This document shows, one piece after another, positions 2,022 to 10,116 of a stretch of 10,116 bases of DNA; within the stretch, counting starts at the first letter, position 1, and the number at the start of each line of letters is the position of its first letter. This DNA is from a virus (Duplodnaviria; Heunggongvirae; Uroviricota; Caudoviricetes): IMG/VR virus record IMGVR_UViG_2531839265_000009, positions 1 to 10,116 of that record, one strand, 5' to 3'. The notes under the pieces were generated by a model. It was not told the DNA's origin. It saw only the letters and a program-made list of their open reading frames with translations, and did not search any database. The translations under genes and the position numbers were made by a program.

Positions 2022-3076
2022 TTAACCAATTTTCACGGTAACAAATTTGCGGATATCTGCCGGAACCGGTTGCGGTGCGCTGTGCGTCTGCACGTACTCA
2101 ATCGCCGGATCGCCTGGCTCAATCCAGTTTTTCGGGTAGTACATATTTCGTGTTGTGCCAGTTCTTACCGCGTCCTGATCCATAATTGCCCCATAGGCTA
2201 CCAGTCCTTTATTGCTGGTGTTCCCCAGAACAAGCAAATCAGGATCAAGAAAATGTTTTCTGTGCCGTCGCTGTCGGTGTATTTACCGGAATAAACAATA
2301 AGCGCCAGATCTCCCAGGTAGCCTTTAAAGCTCACCACTTCGCCCAGGTTTTTACACGCCAGCTCTGCCGCAGACTCTGACCCCCGGGACAAATCATAAA
2401 GTTCCCGGAATTTTTTAAAGCTGCGTAACAATCGCCAGGCATTCGCCCCCATAATCATGACGTTCGCGGGGCACTCAGCCTGTTCGGTATACAGTTCAAT
2501 ATCATCTGTCGGATCATGCGTCTCTTTATCCTGCTCAGACCATTTTTTCCCTGGCCCCTGCTGGATAATGCAGTTTGCTGGCATCCTCCAGTCGATTTCG
2601 TAGCGTTCTATGCCTTCGCCCTCAATGATATTTTTTCCGGTAGTGACTGCATTTACCGCCAGCCATTCAACACGGGCTTTGATGGCTTTTACCTGACGGC
2701 GAAGATTGCCGGTAATGAGGCGGAGGCGACGATAAGACGGGCTGTTGAGTGCTGCCGGATCTTCACCAGCAACACGCATAATGGTTTTTGATGGATCGAT
2801 TTCGTGTTTTGGCTTCATGTAGCCAGGCTGGATAATGCTTGTTTCGTACCCTTTATCACGCTGAACCTGACTACCCACCATCGGCGAACAAAATGCCGAC
2901 ATGGTTACTTCGTCATTTTCCAGATCATCTAACATAATCTTCTGTGTATCGAAGGTTGCGACGTTAGGGAAAAATAACGTGGTAAACAGCGGATTGAATT
3001 TAAAATCATCAACATCAGGACGATTCAGATAGGAAAAAAGCTGGTTTGTGTTCAGTGGTTGCGCCTTATCTGTCAT
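2022..3076 (-). pseudogene. major capsid protein, lambda gpE-like, interrupted by a 1-nt frameshift near 2250 (pseudogene or homopolymer sequencing error)
   Basis: ORF 2198..3076 matches the lambda gpE N-terminal and central regions (KFNPLFTTLFFP vs KFDPLFLRLFF; GYMKPKHEIDP vs GYVKPKHEVNP; THDPTDDIELY vs TYDPTDDIEAY). ORF 2022..2237 in another frame matches the gpE C-terminus (VLGNT..., YPKNWIEPGDPAIEY...). The frames switch at minus-strand gaaaacattttcttgat; one extra T would restore ...ENIFLDPDLLVLGNT.... GGGGGTGAG RBS upstream of ATG 3076. Confidence 0.8.
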
Positions 3077-3458
3077 TACTCACCCCCATGAGGCTGATTC
3101 ATACCAAGCGCAGCGCGTAAATGACTGCGTACCATCCAGCCGACTGACGGCTTCACCATGCACAACGGATCAAGGCCGATTTTTTTCCTGCCTCTGCGTT
3201 CTCCTCAAAGCGCGCATTAAGTGCGGCGATAATATCGGGGCTGATGTACACGGATACACCGCCCGGCTTCTGTGTTCCCATAAATGAGATTCCTCTTTGA
3301 CTAAAAACAAACATAACGAAAAGTCAGTCATGATTTTAATCATCGTTGCATTTTTTGCAATGATATTGACTGTTGTTGCAAATCATGAAATTATCATGCC
3401 GTGGTTTTACTCCTTGTACCACAGACTCATTCAGCATTAATCACGTTAGCGGCATGAA

Positions 3459-3492
3459 ATCCCCCGGAACCACATCCCGGGGGATTTTTTTT
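3459..3492 (+). terminator. plus-strand rho-independent terminator (no plus-strand CDS upstream; possible sRNA terminator)
   Basis: ATCCCCCGG (3459..3467) / CCGGGGGAT (3477..3485) 9-bp stem, followed by a T8 run on the plus strand. Confidence 0.6.
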
Positions 3493-3497
3493 GCGCA

Positions 3498-3524
3498 CAA
3501 AAAAGCCGGGAAAAATCCCGGCTT
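3498..3524 (-). terminator. minus-strand terminator downstream of ssb
   Basis: AAGCCGGGA (3503..3511) / TCCCGGCTT (3516..3524) 9-bp stem with a 4-nt loop. On the minus strand it is followed by TTTTGTG, a short U tract. It lies about 15 nt after the ssb stop. Confidence 0.5.
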
Positions 3525-6334: not shown

Positions 6335-6791
6335 GGCTCACCACCTCCGGGAATTTTCTTCTGTAACGCGCCTCTGCAACATATTCCGCATAGTCCGACG
6401 CAATATTGAGAATATCCACACCCTCTGCCCTGTAGCCACTGGTACTGATAAGGAAAAATGCGGCTTTCATCATGTCGGCAACGCATAACAACGCATCGCC
6501 GGTGTGTTCTGGTGCGCCATCAAATTCCTGTTTCAGGGCATTAAAACGATCATCACGCATAACCCCCCCATTTTCACAATCAGCAATCAGGATGGCTTTA
6601 GCCTCATTCAGTGCCATATCAGCGGTAAGCTGTGCGTAGGCCAGCGAATGGGGGATTATTGCCCCTGTATACTCCGGCTCTCTGCTAATGTGTTTTTCCG
6701 CGGTTGCTGCCGTGCATGAAATATTAATCAGCGCGTGCATCAGCGTTCTGATAGCTTCGGCGGCTGCGTCCGGACGGGTGTTATTGCACAT
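6327..6791 (-). CDS. hypothetical protein (154 aa)
   Basis: Open frame with GGGGGTGAG RBS and start ATG 6791..6789. Overlaps the upstream gene by 11 nt and the downstream small ORF by 8 nt. No family recognised. Confidence 0.55.
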   Translation of the reverse strand: MCNNTRPDAAAEAIRTLMHALINISCTAATAEKHISREPEYTGAIIPHSLAYAQLTADMALNEAKAILIADCENGGVMRDDRFNALKQEFDGAPEHTGDALLCVADMMKAAFFLISTSGYRAEGVDILNIASDYAEYVAEARYRRKFPEVVSHE

Positions 6792-6987
6792 GGCTCACCC
6801 CCTGACGAATACGGGCGGCGAATACCATCACGCAGCCAGCCGGGGATTGCTGGCGTGCTTCCTGTTCGCTGGTGGCCTCAATGGTAATCACGCGCGGTTG
6901 TGCCGTACTCAGGGCGATAAAACGCCAGATATATTTATTCAGGTTGTGCGAGTCCCGCCCTTGCGGGTGTGTGGTATGATTTCTCAT
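6781..6987 (-). CDS. hypothetical small protein (68 aa)
   Basis: The 3' 68 codons of the long 6781..7425 frame, starting at ATG 6987..6985 with GAGG 5 nt upstream. The rest of that frame runs antisense through the RHH gene and is rejected. Stop TAA at 6783..6781 overlaps the next gene's start. Confidence 0.4.
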   Translation of the reverse strand: MRNHTTHPQGRDSHNLNKYIWRFIALSTAQPRVITIEATSEQEARQQSPAGCVMVFAARIRQGVSHVQ

Positions 6988-7068
6988 AGCTGCCTCGATA
7001 CTCTTTCTATCGTTGGTGGTTAGACGCCCTGCATGTGTGCCACCACTGCGGGGCGTTGCGTTTTTTGA

Positions 7069-7128
7069 TGTACACGTGTTAAGGTGTACACCTAACGAAC
7101 CAAAACATAACGCTATAGGTGTACACAT
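7069..7128. promoter_or_regulatory. three GTGTACAC-type palindromic operator-like sites upstream of, and overlapping the start of, the RHH gene
   Basis: TGTACAC at 7069..7075 overlapping the ACACGTGT palindrome at 7072..7079. Perfect 12-bp palindrome AGGTGTACACCT at 7082..7093. AGGTGTACACAT at 7117..7128, which overlaps the probable RBS (AGGTG) and the A of ATG 7127. Confidence 0.6.
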
Positions 7129-7321
7129 GTCAACAGTTATTAAGCGCGATAAAAAACAAAAAGGCACAGGAAAGGCCCCACCATTCCATATGCGTATAGT
7201 CCCTGAATTGAAGGAGCAGTTTGATAACGAAGCCAGTAACGATGGAGTAAGTCTTGCCAACTGGCTTAAAGAGTTAGGGCGCAAAGAACTGCTACGGCGC
7301 GGAATTGAGCCAAAGGGATAA
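7127..7321 (+). CDS. Arc/Mnt-family ribbon-helix-helix DNA-binding protein (64 aa)
   Basis: FHMRIVPELKEQFDNEASNDGVSLANWLKELGRKEL fits the RHH beta-strand plus two-helix pattern (compare Mnt FNFRMPMEVREKLKFRAEANGRSMNSELLQIV). ATG 7127 sits 5 nt after AGGTG. The longer 7013..7321 frame upstream has no RBS and runs through the operator palindromes. Confidence 0.6.
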   Translation: MSTVIKRDKKQKGTGKAPPFHMRIVPELKEQFDNEASNDGVSLANWLKELGRKELLRRGIEPKG

Positions 7322-7330
7322 CTATCACTA

Positions 7331-7861
7331 ATGTCGCAACCAGAGGAGTTGCGACTCCAAAGATTACATAGGAGATTAATGATTATGGGATTCGTCATTT
7401 TCATTGCGATCGTAATTTTATCCATTTACGTTCTTACCAAATTATTTATTTCAGAAAATTCACACGACAAAATTAGAGCCGAGGCATCCAGAAGAATTGC
7501 ACAAGAAGAGGCCGAACGGGCTAAGTTGTATGAAGAGAGAAAGGAATCATCTGATAATCCTGTTAATAAACAAAAACGAATAACAACACACGAAGATCAT
7601 TTTTATATGGATATTCATGGCGGTCACAAATATATATGTGTTGATGCTAAGTTAGTTTTTGAATATGCAAATTTAAAACACAACTATTTTCTTCACGCAT
7701 CTCACTATTTCCCTGAGTTAGAGTATGTTTATGGAAAAAACGAACATGGGAAAATAGTTAGAGTAGATTTGTACGATAAAAAAATTCAAGCTATTAACCC
7801 CGATACTGGCGAAAAAATACCAGGTGTGAGACGTTACCTACGACAGCACAAGATAAAATAG
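7331..7861 (+). CDS. single-pass membrane protein with ~130-aa His/Tyr-rich C-terminal domain, unknown function (AT-rich cargo gene)
   Basis: Open frame with one hydrophobic helix (MIMGFVIFIAIVILSIYVLTKLF) preceded by a basic segment (RLQRLHRRL), then a charged linker and a C-terminal domain. Strong AGGAG (7370..7374) favours ATG 7379 or 7385 as the real start; 7331 is the longest frame. Markedly AT-richer than its surroundings, by eye. Confidence 0.6.
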   Translation: MSQPEELRLQRLHRRLMIMGFVIFIAIVILSIYVLTKLFISENSHDKIRAEASRRIAQEEAERAKLYEERKESSDNPVNKQKRITTHEDHFYMDIHGGHKYICVDAKLVFEYANLKHNYFLHASHYFPELEYVYGKNEHGKIVRVDLYDKKIQAINPDTGEKIPGVRRYLRQHKIK

Positions 7862-7963
7862 CCCACCGGAATTTTTTTCCGGTTACGCTTTGCCCACCAG
7901 CCGCAAATGTGGCATTGTTGGCAATGCTCATGCGTTGGGGATAACGTGTAGCTTGTGTCGAAT

Positions 7964-7991
7964 GGCCACCGTAGCAGGTGGCCTTTGTTTT
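7964..7991 (+). terminator. rho-independent terminator for the plus-strand cassette
   Basis: GGCCACC (7964..7970) / GGTGGCC (7977..7983) 7-bp stem with a 6-nt loop, followed by TTTGTTTT. Confidence 0.65.
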
Positions 7992-8142
7992 GCCTGTTAT
8001 CCGGCAATTGTGGCGCTTCGTCACACGGTTGATATAATTCCCCTGCACTGATCCATTTTTTTCGCAGCAGGTTAATTGTTCACAAGGGCGCTCCGGCAAC
8101 GGGGTGCTTTTTGTTATGTTCATTGCGTTACACCTAACACCA

Positions 8143-8349
8143 TTACGCAGCCGTTCCGCGCGCTTCTTCCTCGCGTTCTTTCAGCCAGGCCAGCACCTCA
8201 TCTTCATACCAGCCAACACGGCGCAGACCGATTTTGAAGCCTTTCGGGAATTTTCCGGCGCTGATCATGTCCTGTAGCGAACTGTCTGCCTTGATGCGCA
8301 GAATATTTTTTACTTCCTGACGGGTAAGAATTTTTCTGATTACTTCCAT
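8143..8349 (-). CDS. alpA: AlpA-family phage transcriptional regulator (MerR-like HTH; excisionase/activator-like)
   Basis: 68-aa ORF. ILTRQEVKNILRIKADSSLQDMISAGKFPKGFKIGLRRVGWYEDEVLAWL matches the AlpA pattern (L..V....G.S..T.Y.....G.FP.....G.R.VGW...EV..WL). GAGGT RBS 9 nt upstream of ATG 8349. Confidence 0.85.
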   Translation of the reverse strand: MEVIRKILTRQEVKNILRIKADSSLQDMISAGKFPKGFKIGLRRVGWYEDEVLAWLKEREEEARGTAA

Positions 8350-8874: not shown

Positions 8875-10116
8875 TTACACGGCACGGATACCCCTTTTAC
8901 CACTGGCTATGGTCACTCCGGTAGCTGCGGCCTCTACAAATTCCCCCCACCAGCGCATAAGCACCACGCGCTTTTCCAGGTAGTTACTTCGGTTATATGC
9001 TCGCCTTACCTCGTTCGTGTCCACGTGTGCGAGTGCGGCCTCGATTACGTCCGGCTCGAATCCTTCCTCGTTCGCTGCTGTACTGAATATGGCGCGTAAT
9101 CCGTGAGACACCAGCACACCAGCGTATCCCATCCGGCGCAATGCAGCGTTAGCGGTCTGGCTGCTCATTGGCAGCATTGGATTTTTAAGGCTGGGAAAAA
9201 CATGTTCCCTGTGTGCGCTGATTGGCTTCATTGTTTCCAGTACAGCCATCGCCTGACCGCAAAGAGGGATCACATGGTCACGGCGCATCTTCATGCGTCC
9301 GGCTGGAATCGTCCATGTTTCGGCATCGAGATCTATTTCTTCCCAGCGTGCGGCGGCTGCTTCGGCTGGGCGTGCTACGGTCAGCAGTTGCCACTCAATC
9401 AGCAATCTGGTTTGCCGTTCTATGCTGGCGACCGATAAATCGTGCATTAGCTGCGGTAGCTGTTCCGGTCGGATGGTTGGCATATGCTTTTTAGTGGGAG
9501 AAGGGAATGCCTTGCGGACGTTCGCTGCGGTGTTGATGTCAATCAGCCCACTGTTGGCAGCAAAATCCATCACTTCATTGATGCGTTGTAAAACGCGTTT
9601 CAGAGTTTCCAGGTTGCCACGCGCTTTAATGGGGGTGAGTATCTCGACAAAGCGGCGAGCGGTGAGGGTATCTATTGGCGTTTTTCCGATGTACGGGAAT
9701 ACGTATTTTTCCATGGATCGCCAGATATCCTTAATCGTGTTGTAAGCCAGATTCTGGCCTTTTTTCATCTCGTACCAGTCCGAGGCAACTTTTTCGAACG
9801 TGTTGCCCTTTTTCCTGCTCTCTGCTTCACGTTTCCGGCGTTCGTAGTCCTGTGGGTCAGTTCCCTTTGCTATGAGTGACCTGTATTCATTCCGTCGCTC
9901 TCTGGCATCAGACAGGGAAACATCATTTAGCGATCCAAGGCTGATAATAGTCCGTTTTTTATCTGCCGGGCGGTAGTACGTAAAACGCCAGATTTTTGAT
10001 CCGGAGGGCTTCACCAGAAGAAATAATCCTCCGCCATCCTGCAGGGTATATTCCTTTTCCCCTGGTCGTGCGTTTTTGATCTCCGTAATAGTTAGTGGGG
10101 GGGTTTTTCGTGCCAT
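8875..10116 (-). CDS. int: tyrosine site-specific integrase, P4-family (prophage CP4-like)
   Basis: 413-aa ORF. N-terminus YTLQDGGGLFLLVKPSGSKIWRFTYY is the typical P4-type integrase arm domain. C-terminal catalytic region contains the HGLR box (VSHGLRAIFSTAA) and a downstream Tyr (RRAYNRSNYLEKR). The ATG is the last three bases of the window, so its RBS and the attachment site lie outside. Confidence 0.95.
   Translation of the reverse strand: MARKTPPLTITEIKNARPGEKEYTLQDGGGLFLLVKPSGSKIWRFTYYRPADKKRTIISLGSLNDVSLSDARERRNEYRSLIAKGTDPQDYERRKREAESRKKGNTFEKVASDWYEMKKGQNLAYNTIKDIWRSMEKYVFPYIGKTPIDTLTARRFVEILTPIKARGNLETLKRVLQRINEVMDFAANSGLIDINTAANVRKAFPSPTKKHMPTIRPEQLPQLMHDLSVASIERQTRLLIEWQLLTVARPAEAAAARWEEIDLDAETWTIPAGRMKMRRDHVIPLCGQAMAVLETMKPISAHREHVFPSLKNPMLPMSSQTANAALRRMGYAGVLVSHGLRAIFSTAANEEGFEPDVIEAALAHVDTNEVRRAYNRSNYLEKRVVLMRWWGEFVEAAATGVTIASGKRGIRAV

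What the first reader, a model, noticed from the sequence alone, without database searches (positions are those of the whole stretch)
7069..7991. AT-rich plus-strand cassette: autoregulated Arc-like RHH protein plus single-pass membrane protein (candidate defence, exclusion or toxin module)
This is the only plus-strand unit in the island. It sits between alpA and the replication genes, a typical accessory position. It has its own palindromic operators, one of which overlaps the RBS and start of the RHH gene, a 8-bp-stem hairpin (7333..7355) between the two genes, and its own terminator. The second gene is clearly AT-richer than the rest of the window, suggesting separate acquisition. An RHH regulator paired with a small membrane protein fits the architecture of superinfection-exclusion, abortive-infection or membrane-toxin systems, but the membrane protein has no motif I can place.
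Basis: partly seen in the sequence, partly recalled or inferred. Interest (0 to 1): 0.7.

Follow-up and report, generated by a model that had tools for sequence, protein, structure and literature searches.

The report
Satellite repressor with orphan membrane cargo
A small Arc-type repressor from the core control switch of an E. coli phage satellite is followed by a rare, foreign, membrane-anchored protein in a gene slot that holds a proven anti-phage gene in a related satellite. The pair is therefore a resident regulator plus candidate defence cargo, not a dedicated two-gene system.

Summary
The sequence features are real. A 64-aa Arc-like RHH gene (7127-7321) sits beside two near-identical 12-bp palindromes. 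A 160-aa single-pass membrane protein follows (7379/7385-7861, 34% GC against 49% for the window). A strong terminator lies at 7964-7983.

The "cassette" is two things, not one.

1. The RHH and its boxes are a conserved, allelic part of Gram-negative PICI-type satellites in E. coli, Edwardsiella, Providencia, Yersinia and Enterobacter. The box sequence changes together with the residues aligned to Arc's DNA-reading positions. The boxes overlap a conserved leftward promoter for the icd-like/replication operon. The RHH is therefore most likely the satellite's resident repressor.

2. The membrane gene fills a cargo slot (7322-7889) directly after the regulator. In other satellites this slot is empty or holds unrelated genes, including the validated defence gene PD-T7-1.

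The membrane protein belongs to a very rare family absent from Pfam, PHROGs, NCBIfam and PADLOC. It has an N-terminal membrane anchor, a charged helix and a small beta-barrel. Relatives follow a different regulator family in other satellites, or stand alone in prophages. A toxin-antitoxin pairing is therefore unlikely. A phage-exclusion or defence role is plausible but unproven.

The parts
6784..6987 (-). Icd-like gene, first gene of the leftward (replication) operon that the control region is predicted to govern
   Evidence: NCBIfam phage_ICD_like E = 1.5e-19. PHROG 6196 'transcriptional repressor' E = 1e-46. RefSeq annotation in L001.
7024..7065 (+). Conserved GC-rich hairpin followed by a T-run, at the left edge of the control region. 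On the + strand it looks like a terminator/insulator. On the - strand it lies in the 5'UTR of the icd-like mRNA.
   Evidence: Inverted repeat I13. Conserved in 12 loci with a few compensatory changes.
7056..7085 (+). Candidate rightward promoter for the RHH gene: TTGCGT, 18 nt, TAAGGT. The -10 runs into box O2.
   Evidence: My own reading; positions checked. It is below the scan tool's threshold. The TTG and the TAnnnT hexamer keep their positions in all alleles, including L014 where the operator differs. Inferred.
7082..7093 (.). Operator box O2, AGGTGTACACCT (perfect 12-bp palindrome)
   Evidence: Invariant in all PPFHMRI-type alleles and replaced in concert with O3 in other alleles.
7104..7133 (-). 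Leftward promoter: -35 TTGACA (7133-7128, embedded in RHH codons 1-3), 18-nt spacer containing O3, -10 TATGTT (7109-7104)
   Evidence: Scan hit, 10 of 12 matches. TTGACA, an 18-nt spacer and TAnnnT are conserved in E. coli, Edwardsiella, Providencia, Yersinia and Enterobacter loci. An equivalent promoter-like site is present in YlcI-type L008.
7117..7128 (.). Operator box O3, AGGTGTACACAT. It overlaps the RHH SD/ATG and the spacer and -35 edge of the leftward promoter.
7127..7321 (+). Arc-like ribbon-helix-helix regulator (64 aa; WP_001306492.1)
   Evidence: PHROG 228 Arc-like repressor E = 2.4e-5. Profile A3 against PDB: P22 Arc 1b28/1myl E = 4e-4, residues 2-49. Same position in satellites of five genera.
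7322..7889 (+). Cargo segment that fills the slot between the regulator's stop codon and the shared backbone
   Evidence: blastn breakpoints against L002-L007. Present in 16 of 5426 complete E. coli genomes. 35.6% GC.
7333..7355 (+). 8-bp-stem hairpin in the 5'UTR of the cargo gene. No T-run follows, so it is not a terminator. Role unknown.
   Evidence: Retained unchanged in L014, where the RHH allele differs.
7379..7861 (+). Membrane-anchored protein (160 aa from 7379, or 158 aa from 7385; WP_001306493.1). It has an N-terminal TM helix, a conserved charged helix and a C-terminal domain of about 85 aa. SD AGGAG lies at 7370-7374.
7865..7883 (.). Short hairpin (ACCGGAA/TTCCGGT) at the 3' end of the cargo, flanked by GCCCACC repeats at 7861 and 7892 that mark the cargo/backbone junction
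   Evidence: Junction comparison with L004, L006 and L014.
7890..8142 (.). Shared satellite backbone between the slot and alpA. It contains the + strand terminator 7964-7991 that ends the regulator/cargo transcript, and a second + strand terminator-like hairpin at 8084-8111.
   Evidence: Conserved at 92-97% in loci with and without cargo and with either regulator family. Terminators.
8143..8349 (-). alpA (PICI activator/excisionase family), convergent with the RHH/cargo transcript
   Evidence: Pfam Phage_AlpA E = 1.6e-7. Role of AlpA in EcCICFT073: PMC6092414.

Best explanation
The window is a Gram-negative PICI-type phage satellite. Region 7056-7991 is its quiescent-state operon, made of a resident regulator and a cargo slot.

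**(A) Regulator (confidence about 0.8 that it is the resident operator-binding regulator; about 0.6 that it represses the replication operon).**
- The 64-aa Arc-like RHH protein binds two 12-bp palindromes, O2 (7082-7093) and O3 (7117-7128), whose centres are 35 bp apart.
- O3 lies in the spacer and at the -35 edge of a conserved leftward promoter (TTGACA, 18 nt, TATGTT). That promoter points into the icd-like, DUF4222, RepA-helicase and SSB operon.
- O2 lies just downstream of that promoter's start site. It also overlaps the -10 and start of the candidate rightward RHH promoter.
- Binding should therefore shut the replication operon and limit RHH's own synthesis.
- The two promoters face each other with almost coincident starts, so RNA polymerase can probably occupy only one at a time.
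- Different satellites carry different RHH alleles with matching boxes, or YlcI/YnfO-type regulators with their own repeats. This would keep co-resident satellites from cross-regulating.

**(B) Cargo (confidence about 0.4 for the function).**
- The AT-rich gene at 7379-7861 was acquired by recombination into the slot between the regulator's stop codon and the backbone terminator.
- It has no promoter of its own here. It is therefore probably co-transcribed with the RHH while the satellite is integrated.
- Its product is anchored in the inner membrane by an N-terminal helix. A charged helix and a small beta-barrel are predicted to face the cytoplasm.
- I propose that it is a single-gene phage-exclusion or defence factor acting at the membrane, with the barrel as the binding or sensing part and the anchor as the localising or effector part.

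**Shown and inferred.** Shown: the anatomy, the homology, the co-variation, the slot contents and the rarity of the family. Inferred: DNA binding, repression, co-transcription, topology and any anti-phage activity.
For: **Element identity**
- int, alpA, icd-like, DUF4222, AAA_25/RepA helicase and capsid E genes are present.
- The element is integrated at tRNA-Pro beside yejM in L001.

**Regulator**
- It is Arc-like.
- It is the lone + strand gene between alpA/int and the replication genes in E. coli, Edwardsiella, Providencia, Yersinia and Enterobacter satellites.
- Its boxes co-vary with the residues aligned to Arc Q9 and N11:
  - PPFHMRI goes with GTGTACAC.
  - PAFQ(V/I)RI goes with GTGCGTAC and GTAC(A/G)(T/C)AC.
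  - PQFRMRI goes with GTGACCAC.
  - PTFQIRI goes with TACGTACGTA.
- Both boxes change together and keep their positions about 45 bp and about 10 bp upstream of the RHH start codon.
- YlcI/YnfO alleles at the same site have their own repeats: GGTGTGGCCCAC twice, or AATCGCAC three times.
- The leftward promoter is called by the scan. It is conserved in all alleles, even where the start codon is TTG.
- GTGTACAC occurs nowhere else in the window.

**Slot**
- The breakpoints are at the regulator's stop codon and at 7885-7890.
- Its contents vary:
  - empty: L006, L024-L033;
  - tiny ORFs: L002, L004, L005, L007, L016, L018, L022;
  - SWIM zinc-finger protein: L003, L015;
  - a 147-aa protein: L017;
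  - PD-T7-1: L020, L021 (PADLOC E = 2e-153). PD-T7-1 was validated experimentally in bioRxiv 10.1101/2022.05.12.491691.

**Cargo**
- It is 34% GC.
- It is found in 16 of 5426 E. coli genomes.
- The same cargo and junction occur behind a different RHH allele and in a different backbone in L014, with 5 synonymous and 0 non-synonymous changes.
- Distant homologues lie directly after YlcI/YnfO genes in two helper-embedded satellites.
- Other homologues stand alone, opposite in orientation to their neighbours and with their own promoter-like site, in lambdoid prophages near Bro-N and holin genes.
- No + strand promoter lies between the RHH gene and the cargo gene.
- The family has a single N-terminal TM segment, no K/R before it and 2-6 K/R just after it.
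Against: - There is no experimental datum for DNA binding, repression, expression or phenotype.
- The rightward promoter is a weak match that I read by eye. The scan did not call it.
- Published work on EcCICFT073 shows that AlpA activates the satellite genes and says a global repressor is 'unclear' (PMC6092414). The RHH could therefore be only a local or autoregulatory factor.
- The membrane protein matches no defence model in PADLOC.
- Only one of five AF2 models of the C-domain was confident.
- 'Guilt by location' rests on one known defence gene in the slot. Most slot contents are unknown tiny ORFs.
- If translation started at 7331, the extra Arg-rich N-terminus would reverse the predicted topology.
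- The family is so rare that strong, general selection for it is not evident. There was no true hit in 100,044 species-representative genomes.
Confidence: 0.55

Rival explanations
1. The two genes form a dedicated toxin-antitoxin or abortive-infection pair. The RHH is the antitoxin and autorepressor, and the membrane protein is the toxin it neutralises or silences.
For: - The gene order (small RHH first, effector second, 57-bp gap) and the palindromic operator over the promoter resemble type II TA operons.
- RefSeq names several RHH homologues 'HicB family antitoxin'.
- There is a weak Pfam HicB hit, E = 0.009.
Against: - The RHH is only the DNA-binding fold, the size of Arc. It has no extra toxin-binding segment.
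- The HicB hit is below Pfam's cut-off: 16.4 bits against 21.
- The RHH is found alone or with unrelated cargo in most elements. Its commonest allele has an empty slot and is listed in more than 2500 blocks of the assembly index.
- The membrane family occurs with YlcI/YnfO regulators, with another RHH allele, and with no regulator at all.
Confidence: 0.06
2. The membrane protein serves the satellite's own life cycle or its conflict with the helper phage, rather than protecting the host. Possible roles include blocking re-entry of helper or rival satellite DNA, altering lysis timing, or interfering with helper assembly at the membrane.
For: - All known contexts are satellites or lambdoid prophages of the kind that act as helpers.
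- In the prophages the gene lies within about 2 kb of holin genes.
- PICIs are known to interfere with helpers (PMC6092414; PMC11364771).
Against: - The gene is dispensable for the family. Most related satellites lack it.
- It is oriented and positioned to be expressed in the quiescent state, not with the induced replication and packaging genes.
- It shows no similarity to holins, spanins or known interference proteins.
Confidence: 0.2
3. The membrane protein is a lysogenic-conversion or fitness factor unrelated to phages (envelope or host physiology), or a nearly neutral hitch-hiker in a recombination-prone slot.
For: - There is no defence-database hit.
- The distribution is very sparse.
- The slot also holds many tiny ORFs of doubtful function.
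- The fold is generic.
Against: - Family members share 23-45% identity with the window protein. A strongly conserved C-terminal motif (P-x-T-G-E-R/K-I-P-G-I/V-K/R-R-Y/F-L-R) runs close to the last residue.
- There are 5 synonymous and 0 non-synonymous changes between two E. coli lineages. Both observations argue for purifying selection.
- Occurrence is exclusive to phage-related elements.
Confidence: 0.2
4. The RHH does not control the replication operon. It only autoregulates and sets the expression of whatever sits in the slot, or it acts as an activator or anti-activator linked to AlpA.
For: - AlpA is sufficient to induce EcCICFT073 replication when over-expressed (PMC6092414).
- O3 overlaps the RHH's own SD and ATG.
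- No operator copies are found elsewhere in the window.
Against: - O3 lies inside a near-consensus leftward promoter. That promoter's -35, 18-nt spacer and -10 are conserved in five genera, independently of the box sequence.
- The regulator is conserved even where the slot is empty. Controlling cargo therefore cannot be its main purpose.
Confidence: 0.2

Closest known systems
Phage lambda immunity operon cI-rexA-rexB (my own knowledge of the lambda literature)
   Same: A repressor gene is followed in one quiescent-state transcript by accessory exclusion gene(s), one of them a membrane protein. The transcript ends at a terminator shared with the repressor. The accessory genes are dispensable for the element.
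   Different: - Lambda CI is an HTH protein with SOS-cleavable control. Here the regulator is a 64-aa RHH.
- RexB has four TM segments and needs RexA. Here there is one TM protein with no fixed partner.
- No exclusion phenotype is known here.
P22 Arc and Mnt (immI region) and the MetJ/Arc RHH superfamily
   Same: - The size and the beta-alpha-alpha pattern match, including the G-x-S turn.
- The profile matches Arc over residues 2-49.
- It uses short palindromic operators that overlap promoters and is probably negatively autoregulated.
   Different: - Identity to Arc is low.
- The operators are two separate 12-bp palindromes 35 bp apart, not one 21-bp site bound by a tetramer.
- It sits in a satellite, at the head of the replication operon, rather than controlling an antirepressor.
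P2 / 186 developmental switch with face-to-face promoters (my own knowledge)
   Same: The repressor promoter and the promoter it represses point at each other and overlap. Polymerase occupancy and repressor binding should therefore together decide the state.
   Different: - P2 C and 186 CI are unrelated proteins.
- The rightward promoter here is only inferred.
- The transcript overlap here would be a few nucleotides.
SaPI Stl / Rpr master repressors of Gram-positive PICIs (PMC6092414)
   Same: A resident regulator sits between the integration and replication modules. It is oriented opposite to the replication operon, and its alleles are highly diverse.
   Different: - Stl proteins are larger HTH proteins that are counteracted by helper proteins. 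No anti-repressor is known here.
- Gram-negative PICIs are reported to be induced through AlpA.
- The open papers I could search do not describe such a repressor for them.
Known defence hotspots of PICIs and P4-like satellites (PMC11364771; PMC9122126, listed) and the 'Bro zone' of Gram-negative PICIs (PMC10111431)
   Same: A fixed slot in a conserved satellite backbone holds variable, often AT-rich, single-gene cargo. A validated defence gene (PD-T7-1) occupies this slot in Edwardsiella.
   Different: - The published PICI hotspots are at the 5' end, at the 3' end, and downstream of pri.
- This slot lies directly after the + strand regulator, inside the alpA-to-replication 'dynamic zone'.
- Those papers do not single it out.
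Membrane-anchored superinfection-exclusion morons: lactococcal Sie2009, HK97 gp15, P22 SieA (my own knowledge)
   Same: These are small membrane proteins encoded next to the repressor, or as stand-alone morons with their own promoter. They are expressed from the integrated element and have atypical base composition.
   Different: - There is no sequence or PHROG similarity.
- The predicted cytoplasmic small beta-barrel is not a described feature of those proteins.
- Function here is untested.

Membership tests
Arc/MetJ ribbon-helix-helix DNA-binding proteins | Sequence or profile similarity to characterised RHH repressors over the whole beta-alpha-alpha unit | tested here: met
   The profile of 18 homologues hits P22 Arc (1b28/1myl) at E = 4e-4, query 12-59 against Arc 2-49. 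Weaker hits go to another Arc-family protein, MazE7 and Mnt. PHROG 228 Arc-like repressor E = 2.4e-5.
Arc/MetJ ribbon-helix-helix DNA-binding proteins | N-terminal beta-strand with alternating polar residues, and a G-x-S/T/N turn between the helices | tested here: met
   The strand is F20-H-M-R-I24, aligned to Arc F10-N-L-R-W14. D-G40-V-S42 lies at the helix A/B turn, and G40 is invariant in 18 sequences.
Arc/MetJ ribbon-helix-helix DNA-binding proteins | Binds short symmetric operators through the beta-ribbon | tested here: inconclusive
   Four allele classes show concerted changes of both boxes with the residues aligned to Arc Q9 and N11. This is strong comparative support, but no binding assay is possible with these tools.
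HicB-family antitoxin / type II toxin-antitoxin system (RefSeq's name for several homologues) | HicB N-terminal RNase-H-like domain and Pfam HicB above threshold | tested here: not met
   The protein is 64 aa in total. The Pfam HicB hit scores 16.4 bits against a cut-off of 21 and covers only the RHH part.
HicB-family antitoxin / type II toxin-antitoxin system (RefSeq's name for several homologues) | A constant cognate toxin gene next to the antitoxin | tested here: not met
   The downstream gene is absent or unrelated in most loci. No HicA-like protein is present.
YlcI/YnfO family (NF041551), the alternative regulator at this position in EcCICFT073 | Match to the NCBIfam model | tested here: not met
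   The window RHH has no hit. The CFT073, L007, L008 and L010 proteins hit at E = 1e-17 to 1e-19. BLASTP of the window RHH against the CFT073 YlcI gives E = 2.3. The two are positional analogues, not family members.
Known anti-phage defence systems (PADLOC-DB 2.0) | Match of either protein to a defence-system model | tested here: not met
   No hit for the RHH, the membrane protein or the L008 homologue. The L009 homologue has one weak hit over its TM/N-terminal part only, E = 2.8e-4.
Superinfection-exclusion membrane proteins (functional class) | Inner-membrane localisation | tested here: inconclusive
   All full-length family members have a single N-terminal hydrophobic segment with mean KD 1.8-2.9. 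This is a prediction only.
Superinfection-exclusion membrane proteins (functional class) | Blocks entry or development of incoming phage when expressed from the resident element | not testable with these tools
   This needs plating, adsorption and DNA-entry assays.
Gram-negative PICI-type satellite (the element that carries the region) | int plus alpA, a replication module with primase or helicase, small size, site-specific integration, and no full virion gene set | tested here: met
   - Pfam hits.
- L001 annotation: int, alpA, RepA helicase, SSB, capsid, decoration protein and TerS within about 10 kb at tRNA-Pro.
- Backbone segments are shared with EcCICFT073.
P4 CI / P1 C4-type immunity RNA (Rfam C4, isrK), reported in some PICI 'Bro zones' | Covariance-model match | tested here: not met
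   No C4 or isrK hit at E <= 1 anywhere in the window. There is only a sub-threshold isrD-like hit on the terminator at 7947-7989: 22 bits against a gathering score of 37.

The most novel reading that the evidence does not exclude
Three linked claims make up the most novel reading.

1. The small + strand RHH or YlcI/YnfO genes are the missing resident repressors of Gram-negative PICIs. They form allelic 'immunity groups' whose operator specificity is set by two beta-strand residues. They hold the replication operon off through an overlapping face-to-face promoter switch.
2. The slot directly behind them is an unrecognised defence hotspot.
3. The membrane-anchored small-beta-barrel protein in that slot is a new single-gene anti-phage system.
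Probability: 0.25. Interest if true: 0.75.

Novelty: new variant of a known kind. Interest (0 to 1): 0.55.

Why it matters
**Regulator**
- The founding paper on Gram-negative PICIs states that a global repressor in these elements is 'unclear' and that induction runs through AlpA (PMC6092414).
- A conserved, allelic Arc-type regulator sits on the promoter of the replication operon. This would give that question a concrete, testable candidate.
- The natural series of regulator/operator pairs is a ready-made specificity-swap experiment for RHH-DNA recognition.

**Slot**
- It is short and precisely bounded, and in one case it holds a proven defence gene.
- It could therefore be mined across Enterobacterales for new anti-phage genes. 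The membrane protein described here is the first candidate.

**If the cargo has no phage phenotype**
- The finding reduces to an ordinary regulator plus an orphan moron.

Tried and rejected
**Searches with the membrane protein**
- tblastn against 50,697 phage records and 72,556 plasmids: no match.
- Word-indexed search of 5.8 billion protein clusters: only its own cluster.
- Full phmmer against 1.84 billion representatives: 9 hits. A profile search added a few more.
- IMG/VR scan: one locus, the same cassette.
- Scan of 100,044 species-representative genomes: one 19-residue match that I regard as spurious.
- Pfam, PHROGs and NCBIfam on the window protein, PADLOC on it and two homologues, and Pfam and PHROGs on all eight aligned family members: no family matched by more than one member.
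- PDB sequence and profile searches: nothing.

**Structure**
- Single-sequence AF2: the C-domain was unusable.
- Alignment-based AF2: one confident model of five.
- Foldseek against PDB and BFVD: no hit with E <= 0.001.
- The afdb50 library was unavailable.

**RNA**
- Rfam found no C4/isrK immunity RNA.

**Literature**
- I found no paper mentioning these accessions, an RHH in PICIs, or a Gram-negative PICI repressor. Subscription-only papers are not covered.

**Readings I rejected**
- The mechanical ORF start at 7331. Homologues start at the TM segment, the SD is poorly placed and the hairpin abuts that ATG.
- The 'third operator' at 7069, which is not conserved.
- The 214-aa antisense ORF at 6781-7425, as a real gene.
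Full report
**What is in the sequence**

The window is a phage satellite of the Gram-negative PICI type.
- On the minus strand it carries:
  - an integrase (8875-10116);
  - alpA (8143-8349; Pfam Phage_AlpA);
  - an icd-like gene (6784-6987);
  - DUF4222 and an AAA_25/RepA-type helicase;
  - SSB;
  - a capsid-E gene.
- A near-identical element in E. coli CEA224S is integrated at tRNA-Pro beside yejM. It also has a decoration protein and TerS.

All the described features are present.
- Two near-identical 12-bp palindromes lie at 7082-7093 and 7117-7128. Their 8-bp core occurs nowhere else in the window (0.07 expected).
- A perfect 8-bp-stem hairpin lies at 7333-7355. It is not energetically exceptional (z = -1.4).
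- A strong terminator lies at 7964-7991.
- The second gene is clearly AT-rich: 34.0% GC against 45.1% for the first gene and 49.2% for the window.

**The first gene is a true Arc-type RHH**

- Alone it hits only PHROG 228 'Arc-like repressor' (E = 2.4e-5). It has sub-threshold HicB and TraJ matches.
- A profile of 18 homologues matches P22 Arc over residues 2-49 at E = 4e-4.
- In that alignment Arc's P8-Q9-F10-N11-L12-R13 corresponds to P18-P19-F20-H21-M22-R23. From the Arc-operator structure (my own knowledge), Q9, N11 and R13 read the bases.

**The palindromes are its operators: comparative evidence**

I collected the same gene from E. coli, Edwardsiella, Providencia, Yersinia and Enterobacter satellites. 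I then compared the 100 bp upstream of each.
- Two boxes always lie about 45 bp and about 10 bp upstream of the start codon.
- Their central bases change together, and they change with residues 19 and 21:

| Beta-strand residues | Box O2 | Box O3 | Where found |
|---|---|---|---|
| PPFHMRI | AGGTGTACACCT | AGGTGTACACAT | three genera |
| PAFQ(V/I)RI | AGGTGCGTACCT | AGGTAC(A/G)(T/C)ACAT | E. coli, Enterobacter |
| PQFRMRI | AGGTGACCACCT | AGGTGACCACTT | Providencia |
| PTFQIRI | TACGTACGTA | TACGTACGTA | E. coli L014 |

- R23 and the outer AGGT...ACCT are constant in the first three classes.
- This natural specificity-swap series is the strongest evidence available without a binding assay.

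**What the regulator probably controls**

- The promoter scan finds one good promoter in the region, on the minus strand: TTGACA (7133-7128), 18 nt, TATGTT (7109-7104).
- Its -35 is embedded in the first three RHH codons (ATG TCA A). It is kept even in Providencia, where the start codon is TTG. A TAnnnT hexamer follows at the same 18-nt spacing in every allele.
- O3 fills the spacer and O2 lies a few bases downstream of the predicted start. This promoter points into the icd-like gene and the replication operon.
- By eye I also find a weak but positionally conserved rightward promoter: TTGCGT 7056-7061, 18 nt, TAAGGT 7080-7085. Its -10 runs into O2.
- If it is real, the two promoters face each other with almost coincident starts. 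RHH binding would then shut both. This gives repression of the replication operon plus autoregulation (inferred).
- The published account of EcCICFT073 says that AlpA activates the island and that a global repressor is 'unclear' (PMC6092414).
- I found no open paper describing this gene.

**The regulator is backbone, and it is allelic**

- blastn of the region against related loci shows a shared left backbone up to about 7063-7070. A shared right backbone starts at 7885-7890.
- Between them, EcCICFT073 and others carry a different small plus-strand gene of the YlcI/YnfO family (NF041551). It also has a beta-alpha-alpha pattern.
- These genes have their own repeats at the same place: GGTGTGGCCCAC twice, or AATCGCAC three times.
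- The window's RHH allele is found by megablast in 42 of 5426 complete E. coli genomes.
- A 69%-identical allele is listed in more than 2500 blocks of the assembly index. There it lies 54 bp from alpA with nothing in between.

**The second gene is cargo in a slot**

The variable segment is 7322-7889. It begins right after the RHH stop codon and ends at the backbone that carries the terminator. The terminator therefore serves the regulator in every satellite, with or without cargo.

Slot contents in other loci:

| Contents | Loci |
|---|---|
| Empty | L006, L024-L033 |
| Tiny ORFs | L002, L004, L005, L007, L016, L018, L022 |
| SWIM zinc-finger protein | L003, L015 |
| 147-aa unknown protein | L017 |
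| 451-aa protein matching PD-T7-1 end to end (E = 2e-153) | L020, L021 (Edwardsiella) |

- PD-T7-1 is an experimentally validated anti-phage gene (bioRxiv 10.1101/2022.05.12.491691).
- Published PICI defence hotspots are at the 5' end, at the 3' end, and downstream of pri (PMC11364771).
- The alpA-to-replication interval has been called a dynamic 'Bro zone' (PMC10111431). This precise slot is not singled out there.

**The membrane protein**

- Homologues all begin M-x-(hydrophobic segment). RefSeq starts the gene at 7385 and the cluster representative at 7379. An AGGAG lies at 7370-7374.
- The real start is therefore 7379 or 7385, and the hairpin is in the 57-nt leader.
- The protein has three parts:
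  - one N-terminal TM segment, with no K/R before it and K/R after it, which suggests an N-out, C-in orientation;
  - a conserved charged helix, confident in AF2;
  - a conserved domain of about 85 aa ending in P-x-T-G-E-R/K-I-P-G-I/V-K/R-R-Y/F-L-R.
- With an 8-sequence alignment AF2 gives a small beta-barrel plus a short helix. The pLDDT is 80, but in only one of five models.
- No Pfam, PHROG, NCBIfam or PADLOC family fits.
- The family is very rare:
  - 9 hits among 1.84 billion representatives;
  - 16 of 5426 E. coli genomes;
  - none in phage or plasmid collections;
  - no true hit in 100,044 species representatives.

**Contexts of the family**

- In strain CFIAFB20180511 the identical protein and the identical junction sit behind a different RHH allele, in a satellite with a different integrase. 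The coding sequences differ by 5 synonymous and 0 non-synonymous changes.
- Two distant homologues lie directly after YlcI/YnfO genes in satellites embedded in prophage late genes.
- Two others stand alone in lambdoid prophages, antiparallel to their neighbours. They lie between a Bro-N gene and other early genes, near the holins, and have their own promoter-like site.
- One relative has two tandem copies of the C-domain.
- The protein therefore works without a fixed partner. It behaves like a moron that has been captured by the regulator's transcript in this satellite.

**Interpretation**

- The evidence does not support a dedicated RHH/membrane-protein module and makes a toxin-antitoxin pair unlikely.
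- It supports a resident Arc-type regulator with cognate operators on the satellite's central promoter region.
- It also supports a downstream cargo slot expressed in the quiescent state.
- By position (PD-T7-1 in the same slot), by mobile-element-only distribution, by purifying selection and by architecture, the cargo is most likely a membrane-anchored phage-exclusion or defence factor.
- That assignment is an inference. I give it about 0.4.
- The main rivals are a satellite-helper conflict function, and a phage-unrelated or near-neutral role.

**Limits**

- No binding, expression or phenotype data exist.
- The rightward promoter, the topology and the co-transcription are inferred.
- The structural model rests on a shallow alignment.
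- The literature search covers only open-access and bioRxiv papers.

Noticed in passing
window 7890-8123 (both strands): - A backbone segment between the cargo slot and alpA is conserved at about 92-97% in several hundred E. coli genomes, including EcCICFT073. It is usually unannotated or called an 'Icd-like' pseudogene fragment on the minus strand.
- As + strand RNA, 7860-8000 folds unusually well (z = -3.06).
- Only a sub-threshold isrD-like Rfam hit covers the terminator.
- Its role (3'UTR, leader of the AlpA-driven transcript, or gene remnant) is open.
   Followed up: partly
window 7018-7065: The motif GGTTAGACGCCC...GGGGCGTTG forms a GC-rich hairpin followed by a T-run. It is conserved at the left edge of the control region in 12 loci with either regulator family, and 3 of 7 pairs show compensatory changes. 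It could be a + strand insulator-terminator, or an element in the icd-like mRNA leader.
   Followed up: partly
window 2022-3076 (-): The capsid-E gene appears frameshifted relative to the intact 351-aa capsid of L001. tblastn aligns residues 5-285 in frame -3 and residues 276-350 in frame -2, with the switch near 2222-2252. It is either a pseudogene or a sequencing error.
   Followed up: partly
window 6781-7425 (-): A 214-aa open frame runs antisense through the whole RHH gene into the icd-like gene. Some RefSeq records annotate 137-aa 'Icd-like' proteins that overlap the RHH start in the same way (L003, L015). This is probably an annotation artefact, but I did not test it.
   Followed up: no
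window 7861-7867 and 7892-7898; L014 3037-3090; L004 and L006 junctions: GCCCACC repeats (TAGCCCACC right after the cargo stop codon, and TTGCCCACCAG at the start of the backbone) flank the cargo/backbone junction. L014 has an extra partial copy. They may be short homologies used for cargo exchange.
   Followed up: partly
L002 3449-3613: The 'empty-looking' slot of strain MFDS1019527 contains an unannotated ORF of about 54 aa with a hydrophobic N-terminus (MQQIPYWLGSLFVFAFLMKYC...). It follows a 39-aa ORF related to WP_000136964.1. This is another small membrane protein in the same slot.
   Followed up: no
L020/L021 4218-5573 (Edwardsiella tarda): A satellite integrated next to a phage portal gene (helper-embedded type) carries the validated defence gene PD-T7-1 directly after its RHH regulator.
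   Followed up: partly
E. coli genomes (for example A33 with 5 places, TUM1881 with 4): Several genomes contain up to five copies of the shared satellite backbone. If these carry different regulator alleles, this fits the idea that the alleles act as separate immunity groups. I did not check which alleles co-occur.
   Followed up: no
window 3454-3524 (-): A tandem pair of hairpins with T-runs lies downstream of the SSB gene. It gives a sub-threshold Rfam hit to a Bacillus sRNA (34 bits against a gathering score of 60). It is most likely just a double terminator.
   Followed up: no
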